Origin: a virus
Taxonomy: Duplodnaviria; Heunggongvirae; Uroviricota; Caudoviricetes
Direction: 5' to 3' (one strand)
Length of the DNA stretch: 64,000 nt
IMG/VR virus record: IMGVR_UViG_3300031992_000025
Span: 33,932 to 97,931 of that record
Shown: in pieces, positions 25,067 through 60,429 of the stretch
How the letters are laid out: every line of letters starts with the position of its first letter
How positions within the stretch are numbered: the stretch's first letter is position 1
Notes under the pieces: model-generated
Database searches by the model: none
What the model saw: the letters and a program-made list of their open reading frames with translations, nothing else
What the model was told of the DNA's origin: nothing
Translations under genes and position numbers: made by a program

Positions 25067-25072
25067 ATTTCT

Positions 25073-25217: not shown

Positions 25218-25229
25218 GAGGCATTTATT

Positions 25230-25835: not shown

Positions 25836-25846
25836 TGTAAATTTAT

Positions 25847-25923
25847 GGGCTATTAGTTCAGTCTAGGAGAACGCCCGCCCTGCAAGCGGGAGGTCATCGG
25901 AGCGGAGCCGATATGGTCCACCA
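25847..25923 (+). tRNA. tRNA-Ala(TGC)-like with atypical T-loop
   Basis: acceptor GGGCTAT/ATGGTCC incl. G3-U70, anticodon stem CCCGC/GCGGG loop CCTGCAA, T-loop AGCGGAG. Confidence 0.4.
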
Positions 25924-25927
25924 AATT

Positions 25928-26001
25928 GCCCCTGTAGTACAATGGTAGTACAGTTGACTTGTAATCATCCGATGGCCGTTCGATTCGACCCTGGGGCACC
26001 A
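25928..26001 (+). tRNA. tRNA-Thr(TGT)
   Basis: acceptor GCCCCTG/CTGGGGC, anticodon loop CTTGTAA. Confidence 0.7.
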
Positions 26002-26005
26002 AAAT

Positions 26006-26081
26006 GGGGCTGTAGCTCAATTGGGAGAGCGCCGCGTTAGCATCGCGGAGGTTGCGGGATCGTTCCCCGTTAGTTCCACCA
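26006..26081 (+). tRNA. tRNA-Ala(AGC), A34
   Basis: anticodon stem CCGCG/CGCGG loop TTAGCAT; acceptor GGGGCTG/TAGTTCC with G3-U70. Confidence 0.5.
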
Positions 26082-26166
26082 ATTCATGCCATGGAAGGAA
26101 AACCATATAAACCCTTACAGCTTCGTTAATATCAGACGTAGGTATTAAAGAGTTAAGCTGAATTAT

Positions 26167-26243
26167 CCGGAGTTAGTTCAGCTTGGTAGAACACCTGATT
26201 TGGGATCAGGGGGTCGTGGGTTCGAATCCCGCATTCCGGACCA
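26167..26243 (+). tRNA. tRNA-Pro(TGG)
   Basis: anticodon stem CCTGA/TCAGG loop TTTGGGA, acceptor CCGGAGT/ATTCCGG. Confidence 0.75.
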
Positions 26244-26247
26244 TTAT

Positions 26248-26370
26248 AGAACCTGTGCTTATTTCTAATAGGGCAAGCAGGTTGTCGCTGGTTCGAATCC
26301 AGCCTTCTCCACCATTAATTGGGGAAGTAGCTCAGTTGGTAGAGCACCCGCAAAATATTAGCCAGGTCAT
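26248..26370 (+). repeat. bipartite bulged-helix motif copy 8 enclosing permuted tRNA halves (3' half, linker, 5' half)
   Basis: AGAACCTGTGCTTATTTCT + T-arm GCTGG-TTCGAAT-CCAGC + CTTCTCC-A-CCA (ends 26314) + TTAATT + GGGGAAG-TA-GCTC-AGTTGGTA-GAGC-A-CCCGC (26321-26351) + partner GCCAGGT (26361-26367); acceptor strands GGGGAAG/CTTCTCC fully complementary (G3-U70). Confidence 0.65.
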
Positions 26371-26373
26371 ATT

Positions 26374-26449
26374 GCACCTTTAGCTCAGTTGGGAGAGCAT
26401 ATCCTTGACGTGGATAGGGTCGTAGGTTCGAGCCCTGCAAGGTGCACCA
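26374..26449 (+). tRNA. tRNA-Val(GAC)
   Basis: anticodon stem TATCC/GGATA loop TTGACGT. Confidence 0.75.
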
Positions 26450-26453
26450 TTAT

Positions 26454-26531
26454 GCTCCTCTAGCCCAACTGGCAGAGGCGGTAAGCTCAAACCTTACTTA
26501 TGTCTCGGTTCGAATCCGAGGGGGAGTACCA
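26454..26531 (+). tRNA. tRNA with anticodon CAA but short (type I) variable arm
   Basis: anticodon stem GTAAG/CTTAC loop CTCAAAC; acceptor GCTCCTC/GGGGAGT with G-U pairs. Confidence 0.45.
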
Positions 26532-26576
26532 AAAATGCAAAATTTGCAAAAATGTTATACTAAAGGAGAAAAAGTT

Positions 26577-26657
26577 ATGATGCAAATGAACAGAAAAAAT
26601 ATCAAGAGCAGAAAAACCAAAAGATTTGGTTCATTTAGTCATGGCTTAATTCATTAA
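26577..26657 (+). CDS. micro-ORF (26 aa, basic)
   Basis: RBS AAAGGAGAAAAAGTT-ATG; followed by terminator. Confidence 0.25.
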   Translation: MMQMNRKNIKSRKTKRFGSFSHGLIH

Positions 26658-26690
26658 GATTATAAAGGACGTTAGTTAACGTAATATAAT

Positions 26691-26720
26691 GCCGAGTGGT
26701 TAAGCCGCCCGGCATTTTTT
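26691..26720 (+). terminator. rho-independent terminator
   Basis: GCCGAGTGG-TTAAG-CCGCCCGGC-ATTTTTT. Confidence 0.55.
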
Positions 26721-26863
26721 CTAGGATTACGTTAGCGCGACGGACAAGAATTACTTATGCGAATTCCTTCTTAGAAAAAAATCTCCTTGTCTTCTAATTG
26801 AATAAGATATAGACCTCCTAAGTCTATGATCAGAGTTTAAATCTCTGCAAGGAGTCCATATAT

Positions 26864-26938
26864 ACCGCCATAGTACAACGGATAGTACAGTAGCCTTCTA
26901 AGCTTCTGATCCGGGTTCGATTCCTGGTGGCGGTGCCA
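26864..26938 (+). tRNA. tRNA-Arg(TCT)
   Basis: anticodon loop CTTCTAA, acceptor ACCGCCA/TGGCGGT. Confidence 0.7.
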
Positions 26939-26940
26939 TT

Positions 26941-27010
26941 AGAGCCTATGCTTATTTCTAGCTCAACGAGAGCGTCAAACATTTAATTTGAAGGTATAGC
27001 TAGGCCAAAA
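26941..27010 (+). repeat. bipartite bulged-helix motif copy 9
   Basis: AGAGCCTATGCTTATTTCT ... TAGCTAGGCCAAAA (AC to GC paired by GT to GC change). Confidence 0.65.
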
Positions 27011-27014
27011 TTAT

Positions 27015-27092
27015 GCACCGTCGGTCGCAAGGTGTGACACTCGACTTTTAATCGAGGTATCAGGATGGGTTCGATTCCCTCACGGTGCACCA
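27015..27092 (+). tRNA. tRNA-Lys(TTT)
   Basis: anticodon stem CTCGA/TCGAG loop CTTTTAA. Confidence 0.75.
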
Positions 27093-27096
27093 ATAT

Positions 27097-27171
27097 GCAC
27101 CCTTAGCCAAGCGGTATGGCCTACGACTTTTAATCGTATTATCAGGTGTTCGACTCACCTAGGGTGTACCA
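27097..27171 (+). tRNA. tRNA-Lys(TTT), second copy
   Basis: anticodon stem TACGA/TCGTA loop CTTTTAA. Confidence 0.75.
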
Positions 27172-27174
27172 GTA

Positions 27175-27252
27175 TGCTCCGTTGGCGCAATTAGGTAGCG
27201 CAAGATACTCTTAATATCTGGGTTACAGGTTCGATTCCTGTACGGAGCACCA
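27175..27252 (+). tRNA. tRNA-Lys(CTT)
   Basis: anticodon stem AGATA/TATCT loop CTCTTAA. Confidence 0.8.
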
Positions 27253-27310
27253 ATAAAATATTTTGCATTTGACTTAAAATTATTTGCTAAATTAATTGAG
27301 GTTCAAAATT

Positions 27311-28123
27311 ATGGCAAATTATATAAGTCACACTGCTTGAAATAAAGGCTTAACCAAAGAAACCGATAGTCGTTTAGCAAAAACAGCTTTATTACAAAGT
27401 AAAGTTAAAAAAGGTAAACCAAATCATCCACAAACTGCTGAAACAAGAGCAAAAATATCAGCTGCTAGAAAAAAATACATAGCAGAGCATCCAGATCAAG
27501 TTCCATTTAAAATGCACCATTCATCTAAAGAAAGTTTTCCAGAAAGATATTTTAGACTTTGACTTAAAAAAGAAAAATTATTAGAAGCACAAGAACTACA
27601 GATTGATAGATATACATTAGATTTTGCTTGGCCAGATAAAAAGATTTATTTAGAAATTGATGGAAATCAGCATAAGTTAGATTGAATGCAAGAGCATGAT
27701 AAAATTAGAACTGATTATTTAAATACTTTAGGTTGAACATGTATTGGTAGAATAGATTGATCTTGATATAAAGCTTTGTGCACAAAAGAAAAGCATAAAT
27801 ATTTACAAAACATAAAAGCAGCAATTGAGCAAGCTAGTTTTATAGAAAAATTTATATCAAAAAAAGACTTAGCTTTACAAAAACGTCAAAAGCTTATTGA
27901 AGCTGGATTTGTTATGAAAGATGGCAGAACAGCTCCATGAATGTTATCTAATAATGAATGGCAAAGACGTTTACAGCTAATACTAGATAGTAATATAGAC
28001 TTAACAAAATTTGGCTGGAAAGAACAAGTACAAAAAATAACGAATTTAACTCGTAGCCAATTAAACGATACAATAGAGCATTTTCCAGAACATTTTACAA
28101 AAATCTATATTAGAGGCAAATAA
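27311..28123 (+). CDS. homing endonuclease-like protein: NUMOD3-type DNA-binding motifs plus DUF559/Vsr-like PD-(D/E)XK nuclease domain (about 10 in-frame TGA)
   Basis: HTAWNKGLTKETDSRLAKTA and KPNHPQTAETRAKISAARKK (NUMOD3-like); DFAWPDKKIYLEIDGNQH...LGWTCIGRIDW; TGA codons fall at conserved Trp-like positions (GW motif). Confidence 0.65.
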
Positions 28124-28205
28124 ATTATTGTATAATATATTGTGGTTGAGATATGAGTTTTGGTAGTTTTGTGCCACGCATGCGGAAATAAAAACTACTA
28201 TATAT

Positions 28206-28281
28206 GCCGACTTAGCTCAGCTGTTAGAGCAATTCACTAGTAATGAATAGGTCGGGGGTTAGAATCCCTCAGTCGGCACCA
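28206..28281 (+). tRNA. tRNA-Thr(AGT), A34
   Basis: anticodon stem ATTCA/TGAAT loop CTAGTAA, acceptor GCCGACT/AGTCGGC, T-loop TTAGAAT. Confidence 0.6.
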
Positions 28282-28974: not shown

Positions 28975-29042
28975 TCTAATTTAATAATAAATAAAAGGGC
29001 AGATAAAAACTGCTTTTTTAGTATACTTAGAAATTTAATCTT

Positions 29043-29852
29043 TTGCTAAATTATATGATTATGAAGAATTTAGTTAAAACTGATTTTGATAAGACATATG
29101 ATGAATTAAGCAACTTATCTTTTATTATAAATGAAAAAGAAGATAGCTCAATAGACATTTTAGATGATATTACCTTAGAACAGTTTGGTCAGCCATATGA
29201 AAAATCAAGTATTCAATCCCTTAAAATAAAAAATACTTGTGGAATTTATTTAATTTTTAGAAAAGCAGAAGATGGTAGACTTCATAAATATATTGGGCAA
29301 GCAACTTCTCTACGTGACCGTTTATTGAAGCATCTTTCTAGGGCTGCATATATTATGGAGCATCCTAAGACAGATGAAAACAAAAATTTAGGCATTTATA
29401 AAGATTCGCCAGCTTTACATAGTGCTTTAATTAGACACAATTTTAAGGGGTTTTTCTTTGTTATATTAAAAATTTGTAAGCAAGAACAACTAAATGCATT
29501 AGAACAATTTGCTATTGCACAGTATGGCACTTTTGAAAATAAGTGAGATTATAATTTAACCCCTGGTGGCCAAGAAGGTGTAATTACTCATACAACTGCT
29601 GTTGAGCAATGAATTATAGAATATAAAAAAAGCACCAAAGGGCATGCTGCAGAAGTTAGATGAATTAATTGTAAAAATGTTTATCCAAGTGAAGCTGCTG
29701 CTTCTATTGCTGTTTGTGGTGAAAATAAGCATCAGCAAATAGCAAATGCATTAGCAACACCTGATGGTGAATTTTGACAAAATAAATCTGGTAAGAATAA
29801 ACAATGAGCTGGCTATGGTTGGAGACTACTAGACGAAGTTGCTAGCGAGTAG
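29043..29852 (+). CDS. GIY-YIG homing endonuclease (TGA-recoded C-terminal half)
   Basis: CGIYLIF...KYIGQATSLRDR (GIY-YIG), catalytic E in ALEQFAIAQYG; frame continues through about 6 TGA to TAG at 29850. Confidence 0.7.
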
Positions 29853-31228: not shown

Positions 31229-32800
31229 ATGGATGTAGGACAAATTATCGGAATAGTTGTTGGCGGAGTAGCATTACTTCTCTTAATCATCTTTTTTGCT
31301 TGTGCATATACAAAAGCAGGACCAGATGAAGCCATCATGATCTCTGGCGCAGGCAAGAGAAAAATTTTAAGAGGAAAAGCTGGCTGGAGATTGCCATTCT
31401 TACAAAGAAAAGATAAATTATCTCTAAAAGTGTTCCAAGTTGACATTAAGACTCGTGAATCAATTCCAACTAATGAATTTATTAATATTAATGTTGATGG
31501 TGTTGCGAACTTAAAAGTATCTAGTGATCCAGAATTACTTGAAAGAGCCTTTGAAGCTACACTTGGTATGGGCCAAGAGGACTTAATTGAACAAGTCAAG
31601 CAAGTTCTTGAGGGTAATATGCGTGAAATTATCGGTACTGTCGGTATTAGACAACTTGTTCAAGACCGTAAAGGTGTTGCTGAGGCTGTTAAGGAAAATG
31701 TTATTCCAGATATGAGTAAATTAGGCCTCGAATTAGTTAATTTTAATATTCAAAACTTCTCAGACAATAATCATGTCATTGAAAACTTAGGTATTGATAA
31801 TATTTCTCAAATCAGCAAAGAAGCTGCTATTGCTAAAGCAAATGCTGAAAGAGATGTTACTATTGCTCGTGCTGAAGCAGCAAAACAAGCTAATGAAGCT
31901 GAAGTTTTATCAAAAACTGCTATTGTTCAAAAGAACACAGAATATAGTCTTAAAGAGTCTGAATTAAAGATTAAAACAGATACAGCTAAAGCTGATGCTG
32001 ATGCTGCTTATAAAATTCAAGCTCAAAAGAGACAAGAAGAAATTAATACTGCTACAGTTAATGCTGAAATTTCTAAGAGAGAACGTGAAGTTGAACTTGG
32101 AAATAAAGAAGTTGAATTAGCAGAAAAGAAACTTGCTGCTACTGTTAATAAGAAAGCTGATGCAGATAAATATGCTGCAGAAAAAGAAGCTGAAGCAGAA
32201 TTATACAGACGTCAAAAGAAAGCTGAAGCTGAACTTATTGAAGCTCAAAGACAAGCTGAAAAACTTAAAGTTGCCGCTGAAGCTGAAAAACTTGCTCGTA
32301 AAGAAAAAGCTGATGCTGTTGCTATCGAAGCTGAAGCTCAAAGAGTTTCTCGTGCTAAAGCTGCTGAAGCTATTAAGTTAGAAGCTGAAGCTAATAAACA
32401 AGCCGCTCTTGCTGAAGCTGAAGGTATTAAAGCAAAAGGTGAAGCTGAAGCTACTGCAACTAAAGAAAAAGCAGAAGCTATGAAGGCATTCAATGATGCT
32501 GCTACATTAAAACTTGTTTTAGACAGCGGTGTCTTACCAGAGACTGTCAGAGCTTACTCTGAACCAATTGCTGCTGCATTAGGTCAAATTGATGGAATCA
32601 CTATGTATGGTTCTGGCAACGAAGCTAAACTTGTTGAGAACATTCAAAAGTCTGGTGATCAAATCTTTGAGGGCTTAAACAAAACATTAGGCATTGACCT
32701 TAAATCTGTTCTTCTTGGCTATCTTGGACCAAAAGTCTTAGGTGCTGTTGCTGAAACTCCAACTAAGAAAACAAAAGGCAAAACAGATTTAACTGAATAG
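31229..32800 (+). CDS. flotillin/SPFH (band 7) domain protein with long Ala/Glu/Lys coiled-coil
   Basis: N-terminal TM, SPFH core (KTRESIPTNEFININVDGVANLKV...), about 200-aa EA/KA-repeat coiled coil, flotillin-like C-terminus. Confidence 0.7.
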   Translation: MDVGQIIGIVVGGVALLLLIIFFACAYTKAGPDEAIMISGAGKRKILRGKAGWRLPFLQRKDKLSLKVFQVDIKTRESIPTNEFININVDGVANLKVSSDPELLERAFEATLGMGQEDLIEQVKQVLEGNMREIIGTVGIRQLVQDRKGVAEAVKENVIPDMSKLGLELVNFNIQNFSDNNHVIENLGIDNISQISKEAAIAKANAERDVTIARAEAAKQANEAEVLSKTAIVQKNTEYSLKESELKIKTDTAKADADAAYKIQAQKRQEEINTATVNAEISKREREVELGNKEVELAEKKLAATVNKKADADKYAAEKEAEAELYRRQKKAEAELIEAQRQAEKLKVAAEAEKLARKEKADAVAIEAEAQRVSRAKAAEAIKLEAEANKQAALAEAEGIKAKGEAEATATKEKAEAMKAFNDAATLKLVLDSGVLPETVRAYSEPIAAALGQIDGITMYGSGNEAKLVENIQKSGDQIFEGLNKTLGIDLKSVLLGYLGPKVLGAVAETPTKKTKGKTDLTE

Positions 32801-32850: not shown

Positions 32851-32864
32851 TTGTATAATATAAT
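32851..32864 (+). promoter_or_regulatory. extended -10 promoter TTGTATAATATAAT
   Basis: after terminator, upstream of Thg1-like gene. Confidence 0.55.
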
Positions 32865-32877
32865 GAGGTATTTTAAT

Positions 32878-33789
32878 ATGATTAGAGATGCATTAGGCGA
32901 TAGAATGAAAACTTATTATGAGGAAGTTACTAAGACTAGACTTACTCGTAGAACTCCAGTTGTTATTAGGCTAGATGGCTGTCATTTTCATACATTTACG
33001 AGAGGATTTAAAAAGCCATTCGATGAAGTTTTAGTTAAGTCTATGCAAGCAACCATGAAATATCTTTGTGAAAATATTCAAGGTTGTGTTTTAGGTTATA
33101 CTCAGTCTGATGAAATTACTCTTGTTTTAGTTGATTATAAAGAATTGAATACAAGCGCTTGGTTTGATTATGAAGTTCAAAAGATGGTTTCAGTTTCAGC
33201 CGCTCTTGCAACTTATGCTTTTAATAAATATTTTAATGAGTACTATTTAGAAAGTATTGCAGAAAAAGGCGAAGTTGATAAATATGATTTAGCTCATGAT
33301 ACCGCAAGAAGAAAAGGTGCATATTTTGATAGTAGAGTATTCAATATTCCAAAAGAAGAAGTTACTAATTGTGTTCTTTGGAGACAACTTGATGCAGAGA
33401 GAAATTCAATTAATTCATTAGCTCAATCTTTATTTAGCCACAAATCACTTCAAGGTTTAAATCTTAAAGATACGAAAGCTAAAATTGAAACTGAAGCTGG
33501 AATTATTTGGGGAAATTTACCAACAACTCAAAAACGTGGATGTTGCTGTATTAAAAACTATTATTTCTTAGACAAAGAAGGCAATAGATATGAAACAGCT
33601 AATATCTGTACATCAGAAGAAGATGGTACACATTATGTTGATGCCGGATTTAATGAAGAAAAGAATGTCTATGAACTTTATCCTATTGAAGTTACTCTTC
33701 ATAGTGAGTGGGTAGTAGATGAAGATATACCACAATTTAAAGATAGTGGTAGGAATTATATTGAAAACTTAGTTTTTGTTGGTGAATAA
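32878..33789 (+). CDS. Thg1-like protein (tRNA-His guanylyltransferase family 3'-5' nucleotidyltransferase)
   Basis: TPVVIRLDGCHFHTFTRGFKKPFDEVLVKSMQATMKYLCENIQGCVLGYTQSDEITLVL matches Thg1/TLP N-terminal catalytic core (RLDG.NFH.F....KP.D, GQSDE). Confidence 0.75.
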   Translation: MIRDALGDRMKTYYEEVTKTRLTRRTPVVIRLDGCHFHTFTRGFKKPFDEVLVKSMQATMKYLCENIQGCVLGYTQSDEITLVLVDYKELNTSAWFDYEVQKMVSVSAALATYAFNKYFNEYYLESIAEKGEVDKYDLAHDTARRKGAYFDSRVFNIPKEEVTNCVLWRQLDAERNSINSLAQSLFSHKSLQGLNLKDTKAKIETEAGIIWGNLPTTQKRGCCCIKNYYFLDKEGNRYETANICTSEEDGTHYVDAGFNEEKNVYELYPIEVTLHSEWVVDEDIPQFKDSGRNYIENLVFVGE

Positions 33790-45110: not shown

Positions 45111-48100
45111 ATGGTTGGTAAAATAAATAAAAATTCAACATCTATTAGTGGCTCAATAAATGCTCCAACTCCTAGTACTGGCACTGTTTCAAGGCTTGGT
45201 GGCGGAACTGCAGACCATACAAAGTTATTAAATAGAAATGCTCCAAATCAGCATAATATTGCTGCAATTACTGGTTTACAAGATCTATTAGACAGTAAAC
45301 TTGATTCTGAAACTGCTTTACCTTTAATTGAGGATGCTACTAATAATAAAGCACGTGGCTTATTTTATGACATACACTGTGAAATTGCTGAAAAACCATA
45401 CTGATATTTAACCTCTGAAATTGATGAGGAAACTGGACAAGGGACTCTTGATTCAATTATTTCTGGACCATATGACCTCGGCCAAGGCGGAGGCGGTGGC
45501 GGAGGCGGTGGTGGTGTCACTGACGTCACGCTTAATATCGCAATTGATCCAGAGACTGGTGAACGTATGTGGCCAACATACGTAGCTATTGGTAGCGCAT
45601 GTACTATTGGTGTTACTTGGTCATCTACAAGAGATGGCGAGTCTACTGGCCGTGGCACATTATATGTATATGTTAATGATAAATTAGTTGAAACAAAAGC
45701 AACTCAACAAGGTATTGTTACATTTGAAATTGGTGATTACTTAACTTCAGGTGAAAATAAGATTGAAATTAGAGCAATAGATGCTTATTCTACAAGTAAG
45801 AATTTTATTAGCTCTATTTCAGGTATTACATTAAAGTTACAGTCTAACTTTGAAGATGATATCAGTTATACTGGTGATGTTACTTTCACATATATCCCAA
45901 CAGGTAATATTAGAAAACTTGTATATTTTATTGTTGACGGCGTTCAATTTGGTGCTCCTGAAGTTGTTACTACTTCTGGTGAACAATGAACAAAAATTAT
46001 TCCACAGTCACTTTTAACTCATGGTTCACATACATTAGAAGTTTACTTTACTTGCGAACTAGATGGTGAAACAGTTAGATCTAATGAATTATACTATGAT
46101 TTAATTTGTTATGAACCTGGAAACACTACCCCAATTATTGCTTCTACCTTTAAAGATAGTGCCCCGCAAGAGCAATATGTTTCATTTACAGTTAGATACA
46201 GAGTTTTTACTCCAAATAAAAATGACTCAATTGTTTATTTAATTTCAGACGGAACTTCTTCAAGCCCATTAACTATTGACCAAAGATATCATTTGTGGGA
46301 ATGCCGCTTTGATATTCCAGGTAACCATACTTTAATTATTAGAACTGGTCGTGTTTCTAAGATTTTTAATGTTAAAGTTGTCGAGAGCACCGTTCATGTT
46401 GAACCAGTTACACAATCATTAGCACTTGAATTAAGTTCATATGGCCGCTCAAATTCAGTTCCATTAGAAGAGCGTTCCCAATGGAATTATAATGATATTA
46501 CAAGTACTTTAACTGGCTTTAACTGAGTTTCAAATGGTTGGGTACTTGATGATGATGGTAATACTGCTTTACGTCTTTCTGGTGATGCTCGTGTTACTAT
46601 TAACTATAAGCCATTTGAGACTGACTTTACTTCAACAGGTAAAACTTTTGAATTTGAAATTGCTACATCAGATGTTAAAGATTATGAAACTAAAATCTTT
46701 GAATGTCTTGATGGTGCTGATACAATTACTTATTCAACAAGATATGCTGGTGAAGATACTCGTACTAAAAAGTTTGCAGTTGAGTCTATTGACTTAGAGA
46801 TGTTTACTACTAAGGTTTTAGGCTCTAAAGGAACATATGTCTTTATTTATGATGGGCATAACTGAGATTTAGACGGACTTTTAGTTACACAAGAAGCTCT
46901 TAGAGATGAATATGGTATTACATTAGAAGAAGTTGATTTAGACCCAACAGTAATTGAACCAAGCCATTATGTGATTGAAGATAAAATTACTGTTTATTAT
47001 ACCGTTGCTGGTCACGGCTTCTATATTACTCCTCAATTAGCAAAACTTCAGTCTAATCAATCGTCACTTTCAACACAATATAAAGAAGGTGAAAAAGTTA
47101 GACTTGCTTTCGTTGTTGAAAATCGTAATGATGGCTCAGAAACATTTAAGACAAGATTACTTTATATGTATATTAATGGTATTTTGTCAGGTGTTTCTAG
47201 ATATCCAGAAGGCGATAGTTTCCAACAAACTCCAGCAAGTAAAGTTGCTAATATTACAATTGGTAGTAATGATGCTACTGTTGATGTTTATACAATTCGT
47301 ATTTATAATAGTAATTTAACAAGAAAGCAAATTGTTCAAAACTGAATTGCTGATACTAGAAACCCAGTATTAAAAGCACAAAGATATAAACATAATGATA
47401 ATTACAACGATGAAAATAAAATTTCATTAGATAAAGTTAAACTTCTTGGTAATCTTCCATATATGATTTTACGTGGAGAAAAATTACCAGCATATAAAAA
47501 AGATAGAAAATATATTGAAGTTGAGTATAGAAATCCATCTGATCCAGATAGAGACTTTACTGCTACACAAGCAAGAGCTGACGTTCAAGGTACTTCTTCT
47601 CAATACTACTATAGAAAGAATTTTAAAATTAAGTTTGAAGGTGGTTTTGAAGATAATAATGGAAACTGGACAGAGCATTATAAAATGCGTGGCGATGATT
47701 CAAAGAAAGAAAAAACTTATACATTCAAAGCTGACGTTGCTTCTTCAGAAGGTGCAAATAACGTTGAATTAGTAAGATATTTTGAAGACACCAAAAACTG
47801 GTACTCACCAGCTGAGCAGGAACCAGATACTGACTTAAACACTGCTGATAGTAAATTACGTATTCGTGTTGGTATTGATGGTTTCCCAATTGTTATGTTC
47901 CATGATGCTGGAGATAATAAGCCAGTTTTCTATGGTAAAATGAACTTTAACAATGATAAAGGAAATGAAAGAACTTTTGGTTTTAAAGAAGGCGACGAAT
48001 GTTGGGAATTTGTTAACAACTCATCTCCACTTGTCTTATTTAAAACTGATGATTTAACTGATTGGCAAAGTTCTTGGGAGTCTAGATATCCAGAAGAATA

Positions 48101-51100
48101 TGGCGATGATGCACATGCTTATGGAACAGGACCGGGAGAATTAACTAAATTACAACAAGTTGTATCCTGGATTGTCTCTACTAGACGTGATACTGCAACT
48201 GGAAACCCATTACCAACTCGTAAATCATTTGATGGCGGTGTAACATATTATACTCATGATACTGAAGAATATCGTTTAGCTAAGTTTAAAGGTGAATTAT
48301 CTCAATACTTTGATAAAACATCATCATTATTCTATTACTTATACACAGAGTTATTCTTAATGGTTGACTCTCGTGCAAAAAACGCAATGCTTGCTTACTT
48401 AAAGAGCAGACAACCTGGTGATGGTGGTAATAAATGATTCTGAATGCCATACGATATGGACACTGCGTTAGGTATTAACAACGAAGGTCTATTAGTTTTC
48501 AGCTACGATAAAGAAGATACAGATTTACAAGAAGGCGCTAATATTTATAATGGACAAGCATCTATTTTCTGGAACAATCTAAGAGATGCATTTGGTCCAG
48601 AATTAAAACAAATGTATGCTGACCTTCGTACTGATAAGGGACAAGGTAAACCTTATTGGAGCTACGATAATATTGAAAAATACTTTGAAGACCATCAAGC
48701 TGTTTGGTCTGAAGCAATTTTTAATGAAGATGCTTATACAAAATATTTAGAGCCTTATATAAATGATAAAGATGCTACTTACTTAGGTATGGCACAAGGT
48801 TCAAAAGAGCAACAAAGAAAATGGTGAATGTATAATAGATTTAAATATCTAGATTCTAAATATCTAACTGGTGATGCATTAAAAGATACTATTATGTTCC
48901 GTGCATATGTTCCAGTAGGCCCAAAACCAAATATTACTGTTACTCCATACCAAAATATGTATGCTGCAGCACTATTTAGAAATGGTGATACTGTTACGCC
49001 AGTCAGAGCTTCAAAAGGCACACCAGTTACATTAGTAAATACAGTTGAATATGAAGCAACAGAAACAGACCAAGAAACAATTATTTATTCTGCTTCTCAA
49101 TTAAAAGATATTGGTGATCTTTCCGTATTTAAGCCAGGATATGCAGACTTTTCAAAAGCAACTAAACTACAAAGATTACAAATTGGTAGTTCAAATCCTT
49201 CATATGAAAATCCAAACCTTAAAGGAATTAACGTTGGTGCTAACCACTTATTAACTTACTTAGATGCTAGACACTGTAAAAACTTAGGTGTTGGTGAGGG
49301 TGCTGATGTTACCCCAACCATTGACTTATCTCAATGTTATAGTATTGAAGAAGCTTATTTTGATGATACTCAAATTAAAGCAGTCAGCTTCCCTGTTGGT
49401 GGAAACTTAAAGAGAGTTCACTTACCAGAAACAATTACAAGCTTAACAATTAGAAACCATCCTAACTTAGAAGAGCTTGTTTTAGGCGGTACAGCTAATC
49501 TTTCATCTATTTGGTTAGAAGATATCCCATCAACAACAATTAATGCTGTTGATATTATTTCACAAATGCCTGATGGCTCAACTGTTAGATTAATGAATAT
49601 TAATAATACAATTAATACTGTTGGTGAAGTTGAAGCTTTCTATGCAAAGCTTGCTAGAATGCAAGGTAGAGATGGTAAAGGCGACCCAACTCCAAAAGCA
49701 CAAATTACTGGTGTTATTCATGTTCCTCAAACAGTTAACTTCCCATATGCTATTTGGAAACGCTTATCTGAACAATTTGATGAAGTTACAATTGATGCAA
49801 AGGTTGTTTGTACAGTTAACTTCTGGAATGAGGGTGTTTTACATGAATCAAAACTCGCTGTTTTAGGTGGTCCTGCACAAACTCCATCAATTCCAGTAAA
49901 AGCATCTACACAACAATACTATTATACATTTGCAGCATGGGATCAAGCATATGACGAAGTATTTGAAGATTTAGATATTAATGCTACTTTTGACCCACAT
50001 ATTCAACATTATACAATTAAATTTAGAACCGGTTCAAATCTTATTCATGCTATTCCTGCTGAAGTCGATTTAGAGTATGGTGCATTAATTCCAGAGCCAA
50101 CACTTGATTATGGAACTGTTGACGAGACCACTATTAGATTCTTAGGTTGGTATACAGCGAATAATGACCAAGTAGACTTCACTACAAAAACTGTTTCAGG
50201 AAATATTATTAGGTTCCCAGAAACAATGGAAATTGTTATTTCTGCAAGATGGCAAGATATGAATGCACCATTAGTAGAAAGAATAACAGTACTTGCTTAT
50301 AATAAATTTAGATTCGAACTATCAGATAACTTAGGTGTTACAGGATATGCTATTACTAACTCTGCAGAAGCTCCAGCTTTTGAGGACTCTGCTTGGGTTA
50401 ATTTGCCTGAACCACTTACCTACTACTCAAACGAATATACTGTTCGTCATGCTGGTGAATACTATGTCCATGTTAAAGATGACACAAGCAGTTCATTTGA
50501 AAAAGTTACTGCTTATGCAATTTCATTAACACAAAATATTAATAATGAGGAATATGACACCTCAGAAAATATTGTTCAATTAGCTCTTACTGAAAATGAT
50601 GAGCCGGTTAATGCTAGCTTTGCTTTACAGACTACTACATTAGTAGTTGCTACAGATTTAGATGAACACTATGAGTCATTATCATTATATTGTAATGATG
50701 TATTTGTTGATACTGGTACATCACTTTATGTAGCAGAAGACCTCAACTTTGTAGCAACATGCTATCCAAAACATTATATGGTAACATTTGATGTTGGAGA
50801 CCATGGTTCAAATGTAGATAGCCAAGAAATTATATATAAGCATTTTGCAATTGAGCCTACCCCACAAGTTGATGGTAGTATGATTCTTGATAACTGGTCT
50901 TATGAAGATAATATTTGGGTCTTTAATTCATATGCTGTTTTAGGCGATATGGAATTAGTTGCTAACTGGGTTAACTATACAGGTTCAACTGATATTCAAC
51001 TAGACTTACCAGTAGGAAATTTATTCCCATCAGAAGGCATTGAAGTGTCTATTCATATTTATCAGTCAGTTGGTAGAGCTGTTCAGATTCGTTGAGAGGG

Positions 51101-52484
51101 TGATAGTACTGACCCGAGCAATATAAGCAGACTTAATGTTGAAGGTGATACTACATTTACTCATAGATATATGACTGGTGGCGGCCACGCAGTTAAGATT
51201 TCAAGATTAGCTGGTGATTTTATTCTTGGAAAGAGCTATGACTATCCTTTAGTTGAACCAATTGAGTATGTTTCTGATATTACTTTTGGTTATGATATTG
51301 CTGCAACTAAAGAAGGACTTTTAAGAGGTGCTATAAATTTATATGATATTAAATTAAATAGATTTATGGTAACATTGGCCTCTAGTATGTTTGAGGGCTG
51401 CACTAATATTAGACATGTTATTATTGCAGGTGAAAATAGCTTAGGTGAGTTAGACCTTTCTCAAACAGACATGATACCAGAATCAGTTAGATTTATTGGC
51501 GATAATGTATTTAAAGGTTGTACTGCACTTGTGAATATTAGAATGCCTGAAAGATTAGCCTCTTTGGGTACTAACGTATTTGCTGATTGTACTGGTCTTC
51601 AAACAGTTACTTTCTCAGATAATTCTACTCTTAGTACATTACCTAATAATACATTCTCTGGTTGCTCAGATTTAATTAGTGTTCATATTCCAAATAGTAT
51701 TACTACAGTTGGTGAATATGCTTTTAATGGTTGTTCGTCATTAGCTAATATTGTCCTTGGTCCAAATGTTGTAAGAATTGGTGCTTCTGCATTTGCTGAT
51801 TGTACAATATTAAATGACGTAGCAATAAGAGCAACATCAATGGAATCAATGGGCTTAAATATTTTCTACAACTGTCCAAATCTTCAAGATGCTGGACCAA
51901 TTGGTGGTGATTATGATATTAAATTTGGTTGACAAACAGCTATCCCAGCAAATGCATTTGGTGTATCATATACTGGTGCTTCTGCATTATTAGCAATTGA
52001 CCTACCAAATACTATTACTTCAATCGGAGACAGAGCTTTCTACAGATGTACTAGATTACAGGCAGTTAATTCAAATAATATCTTACCAAGAAGTTTAATA
52101 TATATTGGTGATGAAAGTTTTAGATATTGTTTTGAACTATTAGGTATTGATATTCCAGCTTCAACAACTTATATCGGTGCAAGTGCATTTGACTCTTGCC
52201 GTGGTTTAAGGACTATTTATATTAGATGTCCAAATAGTACATATAAAGTTACAGCAACTACTGGAGCATGGTTTGCTCAAGTAAGTTTAAGTATATTTGA
52301 TCCATCAGCTGAAGAATGAGGTGGAGAATTAATTCACATTCCATCAGCTCTCTCTGATACTGACCCAGAAAAACAGACACCAAGTGAAGCTTATGGTGAA
52401 TTCTGGAATTGGCACAGCCAAGAAATAGACTCAGAAACTGGAACAATTACAACATATACACTTGGCTATGAATGTAATCTTTAA
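45111..52484 (+). CDS. giant ORF (2458 aa if all about 10 TGA are sense): tail fibre/adhesin-like with poly-Gly linker, BspA-type leucine-rich repeats and Flg_new-like repeats
   Basis: single frame free of TAA/TAG for 7.37 kb in an AT-rich genome; RBS AGGAGGAGACTGATTA-ATG; GGGGGGGGGG at about 45480; LRR_5-like repeats 51.3-52.3 kb; HYMVTFDVGDHGS...LVANW repeat. Confidence 0.5.
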
Positions 52485-57873: not shown

Positions 57874-57908
57874 AGCCGGGGCAGATATATAAAAATCCCC
57901 GGCTATTT
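57874..57908 (+). terminator. rho-independent terminator
   Basis: AGCCGGGGCAGATATATAAAAATCCCCGGCTATTT. Confidence 0.7.
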
Positions 57909-57959: not shown

Positions 57960-60359
57960 ATGGCAAGTTATCCATTAGTAACATATACAAACTTAAAGCA
58001 TAAAGTTATTACTGGGCTAAGTAATGGTAGTCTTGTTATTGGTGATGAAAGTATTACACCTGTTTTTTCTAAAACAACAGAAAATATTTTACCTTTCAAA
58101 GTTTCATTTGTTAGCCCATATAATCAAATAACTGGAACATTTACTGCAAACAGAGCTTTAAATGCTTTTGAGGTTAGAATTTCTCCAGCTGAAGAAACAA
58201 GTTACGGTCCTGGTGAAGGTATCTGTGCTTTTTCAATAGTTGGTATAGCTGGAAATACTTCAAATAATTTTATTATTCCTATTAATTCGGCCACTTGTTT
58301 ATGTAGCCCATCAAATACTTATAGAATTTGTTTATTAGCTCAAAGTGAATTAGACTATTCTTGGGACTGCACTCAATTATATATGGTAATTGATACAAAT
58401 ACTTCATTTACTAATACTTATACTGAGGTGGAATTTCTTAAGTCTACTGGCACACAATATATAGATACAGGTCTTGGTGTTTCATCCTCTATTAAAGTAG
58501 AAATTACTTTATTACCAACAGTTCAAGGAGTTGATGAGCGCTTTTTTGGTGCTTATGATAATGGTATTTTCTTAGGTCAATTGGCTAGCAAATGGCGTTA
58601 TGGTAGCACTTGTGAAAAAAATGACATTGCAATTGATTATGCAACTAAAACTACTGTAACAGCGAATGGCGCAGCTTGAACATTTAATGGAGTAGAAAAA
58701 ACTGCTAGTACTATTGGAAATCGTGGTAATAGAATGCTTATTTTTGGAGCATCTTATAGAAGTGATGCTCTGTATGGAGCGGGTCGTTGTCAAATTTATA
58801 CTTGCAAGATTTGGGATGGGGCTAATTTAGTTAGAAATTTTGTTCCTTGTATTAGAAATTCTGATAATAAACCAGGAATGTATGATAGAGTAAATAATGT
58901 ATTTTACACAAATCAAGGTTCGGGTGAATTTTTATATGGCCCATTAAAGTCAGTCCCACAAAAATATCAACAAGTAAACTATATTGAGTCTAGTGGTAAA
59001 CAATATATTGATACTAATTTTGTGCCATTAATTTCTAATACTTGAAAAATTGAAGCTGATGTATCATTTCATACTTCTGATGTAAGGCAAGCAATTTTTG
59101 GAAGCTATGGCAGAAATAATTCAACTAATAATTATCTATGCTGTGAAATAACTGCAGGAAATAAATTTAGATTAGTTAGCTATAATGAAGATAGAAATTC
59201 ATCGGCTACTATGGCAGTAAATAAACTATATAAATTAATAGTATATAATGATGCCAATAAAGCATATTTGAGAATTATGGGTGAAAATACTGATGAAACA
59301 ACTGATTATGTCACATTAATAGATAATAATAACTCAGAGCTACTATTTAAAGATTATAGAGATAATATTTTTACGCTTGAATCAATTAGGCTTTATTCAT
59401 TTAAAATAAGTAATAATACCGGTCCAGTGCGTCACTTAGTTCCATGTTATAGAAAAGCCGATAATATAGCTGGAATGTTTGATTTAGTAGGTAATCAATT
59501 TTATCGTGACCCAGAATCAACAATTAACTTAGGTGATATTTCGGCTACTTATACAAACTTTAATTATAATACAAGTTATAATTTAGATAGCTGGGGCGGA
59601 AATGTTGGCACTGCTAAATTTTTTGGTTCAGGTGGGTATGAGAATGCTCCATATTATGCTTATTATAAAACGACTAATGGCACTTCTGGTGGTTCGTATA
59701 AAGATACGGCAGATAATATGACTATTGAAGCTGGTAAGAAATATACAATGTCAATTTATGTAAAAGCAAGTAGAGAAGTAGCCAGTAATAGTGAGTATCT
59801 TTTTACATTAAATAGACACAGTGATAATTATTACATTACATATAATTCTCAGGTTAACCTTACAACAGATTGACAAAGACTTACTAAAACATTTACTGCT
59901 TCTGCTGCCCAAGCTGGTAATTATTGTGTGAGAAATATTATTTATACAACTGTACCAGCCGATACAACAGTTTATTTTTCAGGATTTCAATTAGAGCTAA
60001 ATGATCATGCTACCCCATTTGCTTTAGGAACAAGAGATTTTAGTAAAGGTAGTAACGAAAATAATTGCAACTATCTAAAATATACTCCAACTGATTATGA
60101 TAGTTATGAAGTTCATTGTGGCGGGTCAGCACAATTTAGTGAATTGTGATTAATTAGTTGCCCGAGTAGTGCTAGAATACAGACAATAAAATTAATAAGG
60201 AGTATGACAGGCTTAGCCTTAAAAGAGGCCAAAGATTTAGTAGAAATTTGTCCATGTTGTATATATGATTCTACAAATAATCAAGAGTTCTTATTAGATA
60301 AATATGATGAATATGCAAGTCAATTTGAAGCTTGCGGAGCAGCTATTGAGCTAAGATAA
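57960..60359 (+). CDS. structural protein (799 aa, TGA-recoded) with C-terminal ribosomal protein bL12 (L7/L12) C-terminal-domain-like module
   Basis: frame continuous through 4 TGA; last 60 aa [60 protein letters not shown] aligns with bL12 CTD [23 protein letters not shown]...LEEAGAEVE. Confidence 0.5.
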
Positions 60360-60376
60360 TATATAAGAATTAATAT

Positions 60377-60411
60377 GAAAGTTCTGATAATTAAAGTCAG
60401 AACTTTTATTT
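60377..60411 (+). terminator. rho-independent terminator
   Basis: GAAAGTTCTGATAATTAAAGTCAGAACTTTTATTT. Confidence 0.65.
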
Positions 60412-60414: not shown

Positions 60415-60429
60415 TTTGCTAAATTATAT
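60415..60429 (+). promoter_or_regulatory. TTTGCTAAATTATAT motif
   Basis: follows terminator, 28 nt before ATG 60457. Confidence 0.4.

What the first reader, a model, noticed from the sequence alone, without database searches (positions are those of the whole stretch)
60150..60359. Ribosomal protein bL12 C-terminal-domain-like module at the C-terminus of a recoded structural protein
The last 60 residues of the 57960-60359 ORF are reached only by reading through a TGA at about 60145. The sequence [23 protein letters not shown]...FEACGAAIE matches the conserved helix and loop of the L7/L12 CTD ([21 protein letters not shown]...LEEAGAEVE) that binds translational GTPases.

A bL12-CTD mimic on a virion protein could recruit or titrate EF-G/EF-Tu/IF2, act as a chaperone-like module, or be produced conditionally depending on TGA decoding.
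Basis: partly seen in the sequence, partly recalled or inferred. Interest (0 to 1): 0.65.

Follow-up and report, generated by a model that had tools for sequence, protein, structure and literature searches.

The report
Ribosomal-stalk domain on a phage fibre
A large rumen phage that reads TGA as tryptophan has a lectin-rich, tail-fibre-like protein ending in a real copy of the C-terminal domain of ribosomal protein bL12; the domain is a fixed part of the protein rather than a read-through extra, and what it does there is unknown.

Summary
Window 57960-60359 (+) is one 799-aa gene if TGA = Trp. Its last ~70 residues are a significant match to the bL12 (L7/L12) C-terminal domain: Pfam PF00542 scores 40-46 bits against a cut-off of 25.9, PDB bL12 chains match at E about 1e-6, and the AlphaFold model superposes on 1CTF and 8PHJ_W.

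The "conditional read-through" idea is not supported. The gene has four in-frame TGAs, and 17 of 50 ORFs in the window carry them. A 46%-identical syntenic orthologue from sheep rumen has the same module and uses TGG at the position of the 60147 TGA.

The host protein has an N-terminal beta domain, two LamG-like jelly rolls, a CBM_4_9 domain, a ~45-residue low-confidence linker, and then the bL12 domain. Other orthologues end at the same junction motif or carry a different C-terminal domain there.

bL12 domains inside larger phage proteins are already published (Mizuno 2019), but the cultured-phage cases I checked lie in a gene annotated rIIB or in small proteins, none annotated as tail or fibre. 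bL12-CTD-like domains also occur in tandem in many non-ribosomal, apparently secreted bacterial proteins.

My best reading is an exapted, tethered distal binding module. The function is inferred, not shown. I class it as a new variant of a known kind, of moderate interest.

The parts
57960..60359 (+). Complete gene for a 799-aa tail-fibre-like protein (TGA = Trp; stop TAA at 60357-60359). It is identical to database protein P0001.
   Evidence: The exact protein is found on 5 contigs from JGI, ENA and Logan.
58677..58679 (+). In-frame TGA (Trp240). The orthologue also has TGA at this position.
59043..59045 (+). In-frame TGA (Trp362).
59871..59873 (+). In-frame TGA (Trp638), inside the CBM_4_9 domain.
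60147..60149 (+). In-frame TGA (Trp730), in the first beta strand of the bL12-like domain (E25-30 of the 96-aa model). The orthologue P0002 has TGG at the aligned Trp780.
57960..58409 (+). Conserved N-terminal beta domain (about residues 1-150), shared by the close orthologues. Presumed attachment end.
   Evidence: Sequences; model; 55% identity to P0002.
58422..59519 (+). Two LamG / concanavalin-like jelly-roll modules (about residues 155-335 and 345-520). Each starts with E-Y-I-E-S-x-G-x-Q-Y-I-D-T and ends with F-I-P-C-x-R-x-S-D-N...F-Y-T-N-x-G-S-G.
   Evidence: Consensus of alignment A2. pLDDT is above 90 for residues 160-330. Foldseek top hits are laminin LG domain pairs.
59559..59903 (+). 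CBM_4_9 carbohydrate-binding domain (residues 534-648).
   Evidence: Pfam PF02018, 31 bits against a cut-off of 25.9. Xylanase CBMs appear in the PDB search. tblastn hit to a 'carbohydrate binding domain protein' of Exiguobacterium phage vB_EalM-132.
60003..60137 (+). Low-confidence linker (residues 682-726). It contains the junction motif N-Y-L-K-Y-T-P-T-D-Y-D-S-Y-E-V-H (nt 60069-60116), at or just after which orthologues end or switch to a different C-terminal domain.
   Evidence: pLDDT below 50 for residues 682-721 and for residues 1-19 of the 96-aa model. Motif tabulation.
60138..60356 (+). bL12 (L7/L12) C-terminal-domain homologue (residues 727-799; Pfam envelope nt 60159-60353).
60375..60409 (+). 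Terminator-like hairpin with a T-run directly after the gene. The module therefore lies inside the transcription unit.
57874..57904 (+). Inverted repeat AGCCGGGG...CCCCGGCT followed by ATTTA, upstream of the gene. Probably the terminator of the preceding gene.
   Evidence: Read directly. It was not flagged by the scan because the loop is longer than 8 nt.

Best explanation
The segment encodes a genuine homologue of the C-terminal domain of ribosomal stalk protein bL12. It has been captured and fixed as the last domain of a modular, lectin-rich, tail-fibre-like (receptor-binding type) protein of a large, AT-rich rumen phage that decodes TGA as Trp.

The domain is translated as a normal part of the 799-aa protein. 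The TGA at 60147 is an ordinary Trp codon. The domain hangs on a ~45-residue linker, predicted with low confidence, beyond two LamG-like domains and a CBM_4_9 domain.

It lacks the bL12 N-terminal domain that binds uL10, so it cannot be a stalk subunit. The most likely role is an exapted, flexibly tethered distal module of the fibre. It would sit at the same junction where orthologues carry nothing or a different terminal domain, and it would act in binding or adhesion at the host surface rather than in translation.

Shown: the homology, the fold, constitutive coding, the domain architecture, and the variability of the C-terminus among orthologues. Inferred: presence in the virion, the distal position, flexibility of the linker, and the binding role. 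The ligand is unknown.
For: Homology and fold.

TGA is a sense codon:
- Four in-frame TGAs in the gene.
- 57 TGA against 196 TGG in the window's ORFs.
- TGG at the aligned position in P0002, and TGA/TGG swaps at other Trp positions.
- Orthologues L005-L007 also carry in-frame TGA and end in TAA.

Not a chimera or a recent insert:
- The same architecture occurs in two proteins 46% identical, in syntenic loci from different samples.
- The module's GC (0.32) and GC3 (0.19) match the rest of the gene.
- A terminator-like hairpin follows the module.

Fibre / receptor-binding character:
- LamG-like jelly rolls and CBM_4_9.
- Conserved gene order with an LRR_5 giant protein, an Mtd_N protein, Cthe_2159 and Flg_new proteins, and Peptidase_S74 proteins downstream in relatives.

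Variable tip: close orthologues stop 3 residues after the ...D-G-Y-[DE]-V-H motif, or continue into an unrelated 281-aa domain.

Precedent for the fold working outside the ribosome and outside the cell:
- An HMM scan of 1.84 billion representatives finds tandem (2-8x) bL12-CTD-like domains in many non-ribosomal proteins.
- 28 of the 148 newly listed top hits have signal-peptide-like N-termini by a crude test.
- Read by eye in the sequences: a lipobox-like N-terminus (P0125), a PEP-CTERM-like tail (P0128) and a dockerin-like C-terminus (P0140).
Against: - No experiment or proteomic datum shows the protein is in virions. PHROGs gave no annotated structural hit for it or its neighbours.
- The helix 4/5 residues that I recall bL12 using to bind translational GTPases are conserved. 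This would also fit an intracellular role.
- The phage invests heavily in translation: 38 tRNAs, a Pnkp-like RNA repair enzyme and Thg1.
- Published phage bL12-domain proteins have been discussed as ribosome-associated (PMC6375957).
- No ligand for any extracellular bL12-like domain is known to me.
- The second half of the module shows pN about equal to pS between the two orthologues (36 codons, saturated). This could mean relaxed constraint rather than a specific binding surface.
Confidence: 0.5

Rival explanations
1. Intracellular translation mimic. While the fibre protein accumulates late in infection, its tethered bL12 CTD binds translational GTPases (EF-Tu, EF-G, IF2, RF3) or uL11. It thereby titrates or recruits them, for example to favour phage mRNAs or TGA suppression.
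For: - The residues at E. coli positions K65, V66, I69, K70, R73, L80, E82 and K84 are identical or conservatively replaced in both phage modules.
- The CTD is the factor-binding part of bL12 (PMC3299993 and PMC3505967).
- The first half of the module is more conserved than the second.
- The window shows a strong investment in tRNA supply and repair.
- Mizuno 2019 found peptides of a phage bL12-domain protein in purified ribosomes.
Against: - The module has no uL10-binding N-terminal domain.
- It is fused to an all-beta, lectin-type protein whose orthologues do without it.
- The same motif is equally conserved in apparently secreted tandem-repeat proteins, so it may be a structural signature of the fold.
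- From my own knowledge, single CTD-factor contacts are weak and transient.
- Titrating factors would also hurt the phage's own late translation.
Confidence: 0.15
2. Passive cap. The small, fast-folding alpha/beta domain serves only as a solubility, folding or assembly aid, or as a neutral passenger at the end of the fibre. It has no specific ligand.
For: - Close orthologues function with only 3 residues after the junction motif.
- pN is about equal to pS over the last 36 codons.
- The architecture is rare: only two protein clusters carry it, and a metagenome and IMG/VR pattern scan found only the known P0002 contig.
Against: - The module is retained with its fold intact across a divergence of about 46% identity, at roughly the same rate as the rest of the protein.
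- Its composition is fully ameliorated to that of the gene.
- The helix 4/5 segment is 56% identical, against 28% for the remainder.
Confidence: 0.2
3. Stalk decoy in the arms race with host defence. The abundant late protein displays a bL12 CTD that soaks up defence effectors or sensors that dock on the ribosomal stalk.
For: - bL12 CTD is chain W of the Cami1-ribosome complex 8phj, which is among the best structural matches. Cami1 is a CARF-RelE effector acting at the ribosomal A-site (PMC11229360).
- Bacterial proteins exist that combine TIR_2 or PNP_UDP_1 domains with 3-4 bL12-CTD repeats (P0136, P0168). To my knowledge, TIR and PNP_UDP-type domains are common effector domains in defence systems.
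Against: This is purely circumstantial. No defence system is linked to this phage's unknown host, and fusion to a fibre protein is not needed for a decoy.
Confidence: 0.07
4. The TGA at 60147 acts as a leaky stop, so that fibres with and without the bL12 module are made in a ratio set by TGA suppression.
For: - The TGA lies at the very start of the module.
- If suppression is incomplete, some chains would end there.
- No tRNA with anticodon UCA is found in this 64-kb window.
Against: - The orthologue has TGG at that codon.
- Three earlier TGAs in the same gene would truncate the protein inside essential domains.
- TGA is used as Trp in 17 of 50 ORFs and in all orthologues.
- The Trp is conserved in the first beta strand (W-L-I-S-C-P).
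Confidence: 0.05
5. Artefact. The module is a separate small gene, an internal-start product, or an assembly chimera.
For: An ATG at 60204 is preceded by AAGGAG.
Against: - The spacing between AAGGAG and the ATG is 1 nt. The product would lack strand 1 and helix 4, and P0002 has no Met there.
- The protein is identical on 5 independent contigs.
- The orthologue has the same fusion.
- There is no stop other than TGA between the domains.
Confidence: 0.02

Closest known systems
Bacterial ribosomal protein bL12 (L7/L12), C-terminal domain (Pfam PF00542; PDB 1CTF)
   Same: - A significant sequence match and the same beta-alpha-alpha-beta-alpha-beta fold.
- The [13 protein letters not shown] helix 4/5 motif is almost unchanged.
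- The domain sits at the end of a flexible tether, as in bL12 itself.
   Different: - No N-terminal dimerisation / uL10-binding domain, and not in an rplJL context.
- It is preceded by about 725 residues of beta-rich lectin-type domains.
- The second half of the domain is strongly diverged, with five Cys residues and a 5-residue insertion before helix 6.
Phage-encoded bL12-domain proteins (Mizuno et al. 2019, Nat Commun 10:752; PMC6375957)
   Same: - A bL12 CTD captured by a phage and embedded in a much larger polypeptide.
- Homologues lacking the domain exist.
- Acquisition appears independent and sporadic.
   Different: - Of the cultured-phage matches I inspected, one N4-like hit lies in a ~700-aa gene annotated 'RIIB lysis inhibitor', between rIIA and DNA polymerase. 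A second lies in a similarly sized 'hypothetical protein'.
- The other hits are small proteins of about 90-310 aa.
- None is annotated as tail or fibre.
- Here the carrier is a lectin-type, fibre-like protein in a block of adhesin-like genes, and the phage is TGA-recoded.
Modular phage receptor-binding / tail-fibre proteins with exchangeable C-terminal tips
   Same: - A conserved N-terminal part, repeated lectin-like modules, a CBM, and a C-terminus that differs between syntenic orthologues.
- Neighbours carry Mtd_N, Peptidase_S74, LRR and Cthe_2159 domains.
   Different: - I found no report of a tip domain derived from a ribosomal protein.
- There are no PHROG or PDB sequence matches for the body of the protein apart from the CBM.
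- Virion location is unproven.
Non-ribosomal tandem bL12-CTD-repeat proteins of bacteria (uncharacterised; seen)
   Same: The same domain used outside the ribosome, often behind signal peptides or with surface-anchor-like tails.
   Different: - Those carry 2-8 tandem copies and are cellular. The phage protein has a single terminal copy.
- None of the newly listed top hits shares the junction motif. Their best matched stretches begin at profile position 9 or later, whereas only P0001 and P0002 are matched from the start of the profile.
ClpS adaptor (same fold class)
   Same: A similar small alpha/beta fold. ClpS chains appear from rank 14 of the Foldseek list.
   Different: - Sequence identity is only about 4-13%.
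- Pfam and phmmer assign the module to bL12, not to ClpS.
Stop-codon-recoded (TGA to Trp, code 4) gut phages
   Same: In-frame TGA is concentrated in a subset of genes, including the fibre block, while other genes use only TGG. Recoding of this kind is described for gut phages (PMC11210395).
   Different: No suppressor tRNA (UCA) is seen within this window among its 38 tRNAs. The rest of the genome was not examined.

Membership tests
bL12 (L7/L12) ribosomal stalk protein | C-terminal domain: PF00542 sequence signature. | tested here: met
   40.2 and 46.3 bits against a gathering score of 25.9. bL12 chains are the top PDB sequence hits.
bL12 (L7/L12) ribosomal stalk protein | CTD three-dimensional fold (three strands and three helices). 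| tested here: met
   AF2 model. Foldseek hits 1ctf with TM 0.77 and 8phj_W with TM 0.86 and rmsd 1.3 A. This is a prediction, not an experimental structure.
bL12 (L7/L12) ribosomal stalk protein | N-terminal dimerisation / uL10-binding domain plus hinge. | tested here: not met
   - Pfam lists no family for the protein other than PF00542, CBM_4_9 and weak sub-threshold hits.
- The 725 residues upstream are predicted all-beta lectin-type domains.
- A low-confidence linker is present, but it is not homologous to the bL12 hinge.
bL12 (L7/L12) ribosomal stalk protein | Conserved helix 4/5 residues used for binding translational GTPases (E. coli K65, V66, I69, K70, R73, L80, E82, K84; this residue list is from my own knowledge of Kothe 2004 and Helgstrand 2007). 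| tested here: met
   In the alignment the window has R, I, I, K, R, L, E, K and P0002 has R, T, I, K, K, F, E, K. Conservation does not prove binding.
bL12 (L7/L12) ribosomal stalk protein | Binds the ribosome and stimulates factor GTPase activity. | not testable with these tools
   Needs biochemistry.
Phage-encoded bL12-domain proteins (Mizuno 2019) | A PF00542 domain encoded in a phage genome, alone or inside a larger polypeptide. | tested here: met
   Phage context is supported by 38 tRNAs, PhoH, Pnkp-like and Thg1 genes, the fibre-type gene block, recoding, and relatives on contigs up to 168 kb.
Phage-encoded bL12-domain proteins (Mizuno 2019) | Association with ribosomes when expressed. 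| not testable with these tools
   In the paper, only mass-spectrometry evidence exists for one N4-like phage protein, and affinity purification failed.
Phage tail fibre / receptor-binding protein | Encoded in a block of structural or adhesin-type late genes with conserved synteny. | tested here: met
   The same gene order occurs in five related phage loci: LRR_5 giant protein, 69 aa, ~200 aa, Mtd_N protein, ~180 aa, ~1000 aa, this gene. Peptidase_S74 proteins lie downstream in L001 and L005. Cthe_2159 and Flg_new proteins lie upstream.
Phage tail fibre / receptor-binding protein | Conserved N-terminal part with variable, exchangeable ligand-binding C-terminal modules. | tested here: met
   LamG-like and CBM_4_9 domains.
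Phage tail fibre / receptor-binding protein | Sequence or profile similarity to annotated tail-fibre families. | tested here: not met
   - PHROGs gave only a sub-threshold hit of unknown function, on the bL12 segment.
- blastn against the phage collection found nothing.
- tblastn found only a CBM hit.
Phage tail fibre / receptor-binding protein | Physical presence in the virion, and oligomeric fibre structure. | not testable with these tools
   Needs virion proteomics or cryo-EM. The monomer model shows beads-on-a-string beta domains.
TGA-to-Trp recoded phage (code 4) | Long ORFs are interrupted only by TGA, and TGA aligns with TGG/Trp in homologues. | tested here: met
TGA-to-Trp recoded phage (code 4) | A phage-encoded suppressor tRNA (anticodon UCA). 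| tested here: inconclusive
   None is found among the 38 tRNAs of the window. The genome extends beyond the window (contigs of at least 146 kb).
ClpS adaptor | ClpS sequence family and N-degron pocket. | tested here: not met
   There is only fold-level similarity at 4-13% identity, ranked below the bL12 hits. No ClpS family appears in Pfam.

The most novel reading that the evidence does not exclude
The fibre displays a bL12 CTD that can still bind translation factors, on a flexible tether, and uses it on purpose. One version: it grips EF-Tu exposed on the host surface as a receptor or co-receptor. From my own knowledge, surface-exposed EF-Tu is a well-known moonlighting protein of Firmicutes and Mollicutes. 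The other version: the module acts inside the cell as a stalk decoy, sequestering translation factors or stalk-docking defence effectors late in infection. Either would be the first case of a virion fibre protein exploiting the ribosomal stalk-factor interface.
Probability: 0.1. Interest if true: 0.85.

Novelty: new variant of a known kind. Interest (0 to 1): 0.5.

Why it matters
Phage-borne bL12 domains are known, but their function is unresolved. The cultured-phage cases I inspected lie in a gene annotated rIIB or in small proteins, not in genes annotated as tail or fibre.

Finding the same domain fixed at the free end of a lectin-type fibre protein is informative, especially alongside many apparently secreted bacterial proteins built from tandem bL12-CTD repeats. 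Together they suggest that this ribosomal fold has a second, non-ribosomal and probably extracellular life as a binding module. That is a concrete, testable alternative to the assumption that viral bL12 domains manipulate translation.

If the module does bind translation factors, it would link virion proteins to the translation apparatus in a new way.

The case is also a clean worked example that in-frame TGA in such phages is ordinary Trp coding, which matters for annotation.

Tried and rejected
- **Nucleotide and protein searches of the cultured-phage collection.** blastn of the gene found no match. tblastn found only a CBM hit. tblastn with the module found only host-like rplL fragments.
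- **PHROGs.** The fibre protein and nine neighbours gave nothing usable.
- **Word-index homologue searches with partial queries.** The 96-aa and 277-aa C-terminal pieces returned no scored hit, although the full protein is in the database. I treat this as a limitation of the tool, not as evidence of absence.
- **Separate-ORF hypothesis.** Six-frame HMM scans of the window and of loci L001-L007 found exactly one bL12-like module per module-bearing locus, and none in the three related loci whose orthologue lacks it.
- **Internal start at 60204.** Rejected: the SD spacing is 1 nt, the product would be truncated, and the Met is not conserved.
- **dN/dS between the two orthologues.** Synonymous sites are saturated (pS 0.6-0.76), so the result is only qualitative.
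- **Search for more fibre-type modules.** A degenerate DNA pattern for W-L-I-S-C-P-S...I-K...T-G-L found only the known P0002 contig in metagenome contigs and nothing in IMG/VR. 26 IMG/VR loci with bL12-like genes all encode proteins of about 250 aa or fewer, and two of those ORFs are cut by contig ends.
- **Literature searches** for non-ribosomal bL12-like repeat proteins found nothing relevant.
- **ClpS membership.** Considered and rejected.
Full report
**1. What is in the sequence**

Between 57960 and 60359 on the + strand there is a single reading frame interrupted only by four TGA codons, at 58677, 59043, 59871 and 60147. It ends in TAA at 60357. Read with TGA = Trp, it gives a 799-aa protein. 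That exact protein exists in the public protein collection (P0001), called on five contigs from JGI, ENA and Logan assemblies, the longest 146 kb.

A GC-rich inverted repeat (57874-57904) precedes the gene, and a terminator-like hairpin (60375-60409) follows it. The bL12-like segment therefore lies inside the transcription unit.

**2. The bL12-like module is real**

- Residues 734-798 match Pfam PF00542 (Ribosomal protein L7/L12 C-terminal domain). The score is 40.2 bits in the whole protein and 46.3 bits for the isolated C-terminus, against a cut-off of 25.9.
- The top 15 phmmer hits in the PDB are bL12 chains from several bacteria, best E 1.3e-6.
- An AlphaFold2 model of the last 96 residues gives the strand-helix-helix-strand-helix-strand order of the bL12 CTD, with pLDDT of about 83-96 over residues 21-96.
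- Its best Foldseek PDB matches are bL12 CTDs: 1ctf with TM 0.77, and 8phj_W with TM 0.86 and rmsd 1.3 A. ClpS, the other member of this fold class, appears only lower in the list and at 4-13% identity.
- In an alignment with E. coli bL12, the helix 4 / helix 5 segment is nearly unchanged ([20 protein letters not shown] against [20 protein letters not shown]). The residues I recall as the factor-binding surface (K65, V66, I69, K70, R73, L80, E82, K84) are identical or conservatively replaced. That the CTD is the factor-binding part of bL12 is stated in PMC3299993 and PMC3505967.
- The second half of the domain is much more diverged. It has a 5-residue insertion and several cysteines.

**3. The TGA is an ordinary Trp codon**

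- The window is 34% GC and carries 38 tRNA genes.
- Of 50 ORFs defined with TAA/TAG as the only stops, 17 contain in-frame TGA: 57 TGA against 196 TGG.
- The distribution is patchy. TGA is rare in the first 27 kb, but present in 9 of 13 ORFs of the 39.6-62.3 kb block.
- The closest relative, P0002 (847 aa, 46% identity), comes from the sheep rumen metagenome AUXO01 (PMC4158751). It lies in a syntenic locus and ends in the same module.
- In P0002's DNA, the Trp aligned with the window's TGA at 60147 is TGG. Trp212 is TGG in the window and TGA in the relative, and Trp240 is TGA in both.
- This Trp lies in the first beta strand, within a conserved W-L-I-S-C-P-S stretch.
- Three further orthologues also contain in-frame TGAs and stop at TAA.
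- TGA-to-Trp recoding is a described property of some gut phages (PMC11210395).
- So dependence on TGA decoding applies to the whole protein and to most of this gene block. It is not specific to the module.
- No tRNA with anticodon UCA lies in the window. The rest of the genome was not available.

**4. The carrier protein**

A full-length AlphaFold2 model built on 51 homologues (mean pLDDT 72) shows the following:

| Residues | Feature |
|---|---|
| ~50-150 | N-terminal beta domain |
| ~155-335 and ~345-520 | Two jelly-roll domains (the first with pLDDT above 90) |
| ~585-680 | A further beta domain |
| 682-721 | Low-confidence stretch |
| 727-799 | bL12-like domain |

- Foldseek matches the jelly rolls to laminin LG (LamG) domain pairs.
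- Pfam calls residues 534-648 CBM_4_9.
- The family is large, with 757 database hits. Its members consist of a varying number of these LamG-like modules, each framed by the motifs E-Y-I-E-S-T-G-T-Q-Y-I-D-T and F-I-P-C-x-R-x-S-D-N...F-Y-T-N-x-G-T-G.
- In five related phage loci the gene sits at the same place: after an LRR_5 giant protein, small ORFs, an Mtd_N protein and a ~1000-aa protein. It is followed by other large proteins, some with Peptidase_S74 or Laminin_G_3 domains.
- Upstream in the window are a Cthe_2159 beta-helix protein and a Flg_new repeat protein.
- All of this is what a block of receptor-binding or tail-fibre genes looks like. However, no PHROG family and no cultured phage matches it, so virion membership is inferred.

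**5. The module occupies a variable tip**

The closest orthologues share a junction motif, (N)-Y-x-K-Y-x-P-x-D-x-D-x-Y-[DE]-V-H.

- Six of them end three residues after it.
- One (P0006) continues into an unrelated 281-aa domain.
- Only P0001 and P0002 continue through a short Gly/acidic linker into the bL12 module.
- Related loci whose orthologue lacks the module do not encode it anywhere else. The window has only this one copy.
- The module's base composition equals that of the gene (GC 0.32, GC3 0.19).
- Between the two orthologues, pN/pS is 0.40/0.64 for the module, with synonymous sites saturated. The helix 4/5 part is 56% identical and the remainder 28%, and pN is about equal to pS over the last 36 codons.
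- So the fusion is old and is kept as a folded domain, but its distal half evolves fast.

**6. How common is this**

- An HMM of the two junction-plus-module sequences, run against 1.84 billion representative proteins, gave 4,256 hits. Only P0001 and P0002 were matched from the start of the profile, that is, including the junction.
- A degenerate DNA pattern specific for the W-L-I-S-C-P-S...I-K...T-G-L version found only the P0002 contig in the JGI metagenome collection, and nothing in IMG/VR.
- 26 IMG/VR loci with bL12-like genes all encode proteins of about 250 aa or fewer; two of those ORFs are cut by contig ends.
- BFVD structural neighbours are small phage bL12-like proteins and two longer ones of 308 and 430 aa.

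**7. Relation to published work**

Mizuno et al. [quoted passage not shown] They found it often embedded in larger polypeptides of up to 724 aa, with homologues lacking it, which they took to mean repeated acquisition. They also detected peptides of one such protein in purified ribosomes.

I checked two current N4-like matches. One lies in a ~700-aa gene annotated 'RIIB lysis inhibitor', between rIIA and DNA polymerase. The other lies in a similarly sized hypothetical protein. None of the cultured-phage hits is annotated as tail or fibre, and the paper does not mention tail or virion proteins in this context.

The present case is therefore a new carrier and position for a known kind of capture.

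**8. A wider pattern seen on the way**

- The top HMM hits are not ribosomal proteins. They are proteins with 2-8 tandem bL12-CTD-like domains.
- 28 of the 148 newly listed hits have signal-peptide-like N-termini by a crude hydrophobicity test.
- By eye, individual examples show a lipobox-like N-terminus with Ser-rich linkers (P0125), a PEP-CTERM-like tail (P0128) or a dockerin-like C-terminus (P0140).
- Others combine the repeats with TIR_2 (P0136), PNP_UDP_1 plus pentapeptide repeats (P0168), or LRV/HEAT repeats (P0121).
- These proteins keep the same [15 protein letters not shown] motif. Its conservation in the phage module therefore cannot be taken as proof of GTPase binding.
- I found no literature on these proteins.

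**9. Interpretation**

What is shown:
- A true bL12-CTD homologue, constitutively encoded.
- It sits at the tethered C-terminal end of a lectin-type, fibre-like protein, at a junction where orthologues vary.

What is inferred: that the protein is a virion fibre, and that the module works as a distal binding or adhesion element. The grounds are its position, the exchangeable tips, and the many apparently secreted proteins built from the same fold.

Probabilities I assign:

| Explanation | Probability |
|---|---|
| Distal binding / adhesion module | ~0.5 |
| Passive folding or solubility cap, or neutral passenger | ~0.2 |
| Intracellular translation-factor mimic | ~0.15 |
| Stalk decoy against defence effectors | ~0.07 |
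| Leaky-stop isoform idea | ~0.05 |
| Artefact | ~0.02 |

The translation-mimic rival rests on the conserved helix 4/5 residues and on the phage's investment in tRNAs, a Pnkp-like repair enzyme and Thg1. The decoy rival rests on 8phj/Cami1 and the TIR-bL12 repeat proteins.

**10. Verdict**

This is a new variant of a known kind, a phage-captured bL12 domain, and is of moderate interest (0.5). What makes it worth a follow-up is the unusual carrier, together with the link to an uncharacterised class of non-ribosomal bL12-CTD repeat proteins. The decisive experiments are simple: proteomics across codon 730, and binding assays with the isolated module.

Noticed in passing
window 60415-60428, 29042-29055, 1413-1426 and nine further + strand sites (5007, 17702, 24770, 25191, 27283, 28407, 38861, 44693, 54613): The motif TTTGCTAAATTATA occurs 12 times with up to 2 mismatches, always on the + strand; none of 100 shuffles reaches 12. 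Most copies lie within about 65 nt upstream of an ORF start, for example 60415 before the ATG at 60457. The motif is conserved in the same intergenic position in related phages L005-L007. It is probably a phage-specific promoter.
   Followed up: partly
window 14114-14187 (+): A tRNA-like gene that ARAGORN cannot assign. It has a palindromic anticodon arm (CAGAT ATTA ATCTG) that leaves a 4-6 nt loop. It sits in the middle of the tRNA array.
   Followed up: partly
window 10158-28281 (+): 38 tRNA genes in two arrays cover nearly all amino acids, but none has anticodon UCA, although the phage uses TGA as Trp. The suppressor tRNA, if phage-encoded, must lie outside the window.
   Followed up: partly
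window 2250-4406, 7886-8797, 31229-32800, 32863-33789 (+): These genes encode a Pnkp-like kinase / phosphoesterase / T4-type RNA ligase fusion, PhoH, an SPFH/flotillin protein and a Thg1-like tRNA-His guanylyltransferase. Together with the tRNAs they point to a strong investment in tRNA supply and repair.
   Followed up: partly
window 27311-28123 and 29055-29852 (+): Two ORFs are unusually rich in in-frame TGA (7 and 5). The first has a DUF559 endonuclease-type domain; the second was not identified. They are embedded among genes that have no TGA.
   Followed up: no
proteins P0121-P0268 (database hits, not in the window): A large, apparently undescribed set of non-ribosomal proteins has 2-8 tandem bL12-CTD-like domains. 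About one fifth of the top hits have signal-peptide-like N-termini. Some carry PEP-CTERM-like or dockerin-like tails. Others are fused to TIR_2, to PNP_UDP_1 plus pentapeptide repeats, or to LRV/HEAT repeats.
   Followed up: partly
L008 (Escherichia phage EK8, PQ805430.1 10061-12145) and L009 (Enterobacter phage vB_Ecl_SABI): In EK8 the bL12-like segment lies inside a ~700-aa gene annotated 'RIIB lysis inhibitor', between rIIA and DNA polymerase. In vB_Ecl_SABI it lies in a similarly sized hypothetical protein.
   Followed up: partly
window 45111-52484 (+): A 2,457-aa ORF with 11 in-frame TGAs encodes an LRR_5-containing giant protein. It is conserved at the head of the fibre gene block in all five related loci.
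   Followed up: no
window 60069-60116 (+) and orthologues P0005, P0006, P0008, P0010, P0012-P0014: The motif Y-x-K-Y-K-P-T-D-x-D-G-Y-[DE]-V-H marks the end of the conserved fibre body. A related E-G-Y-E-V-H occurs after the N-terminal domain of P0003. It may be a domain-boundary or recombination junction.
   Followed up: partly
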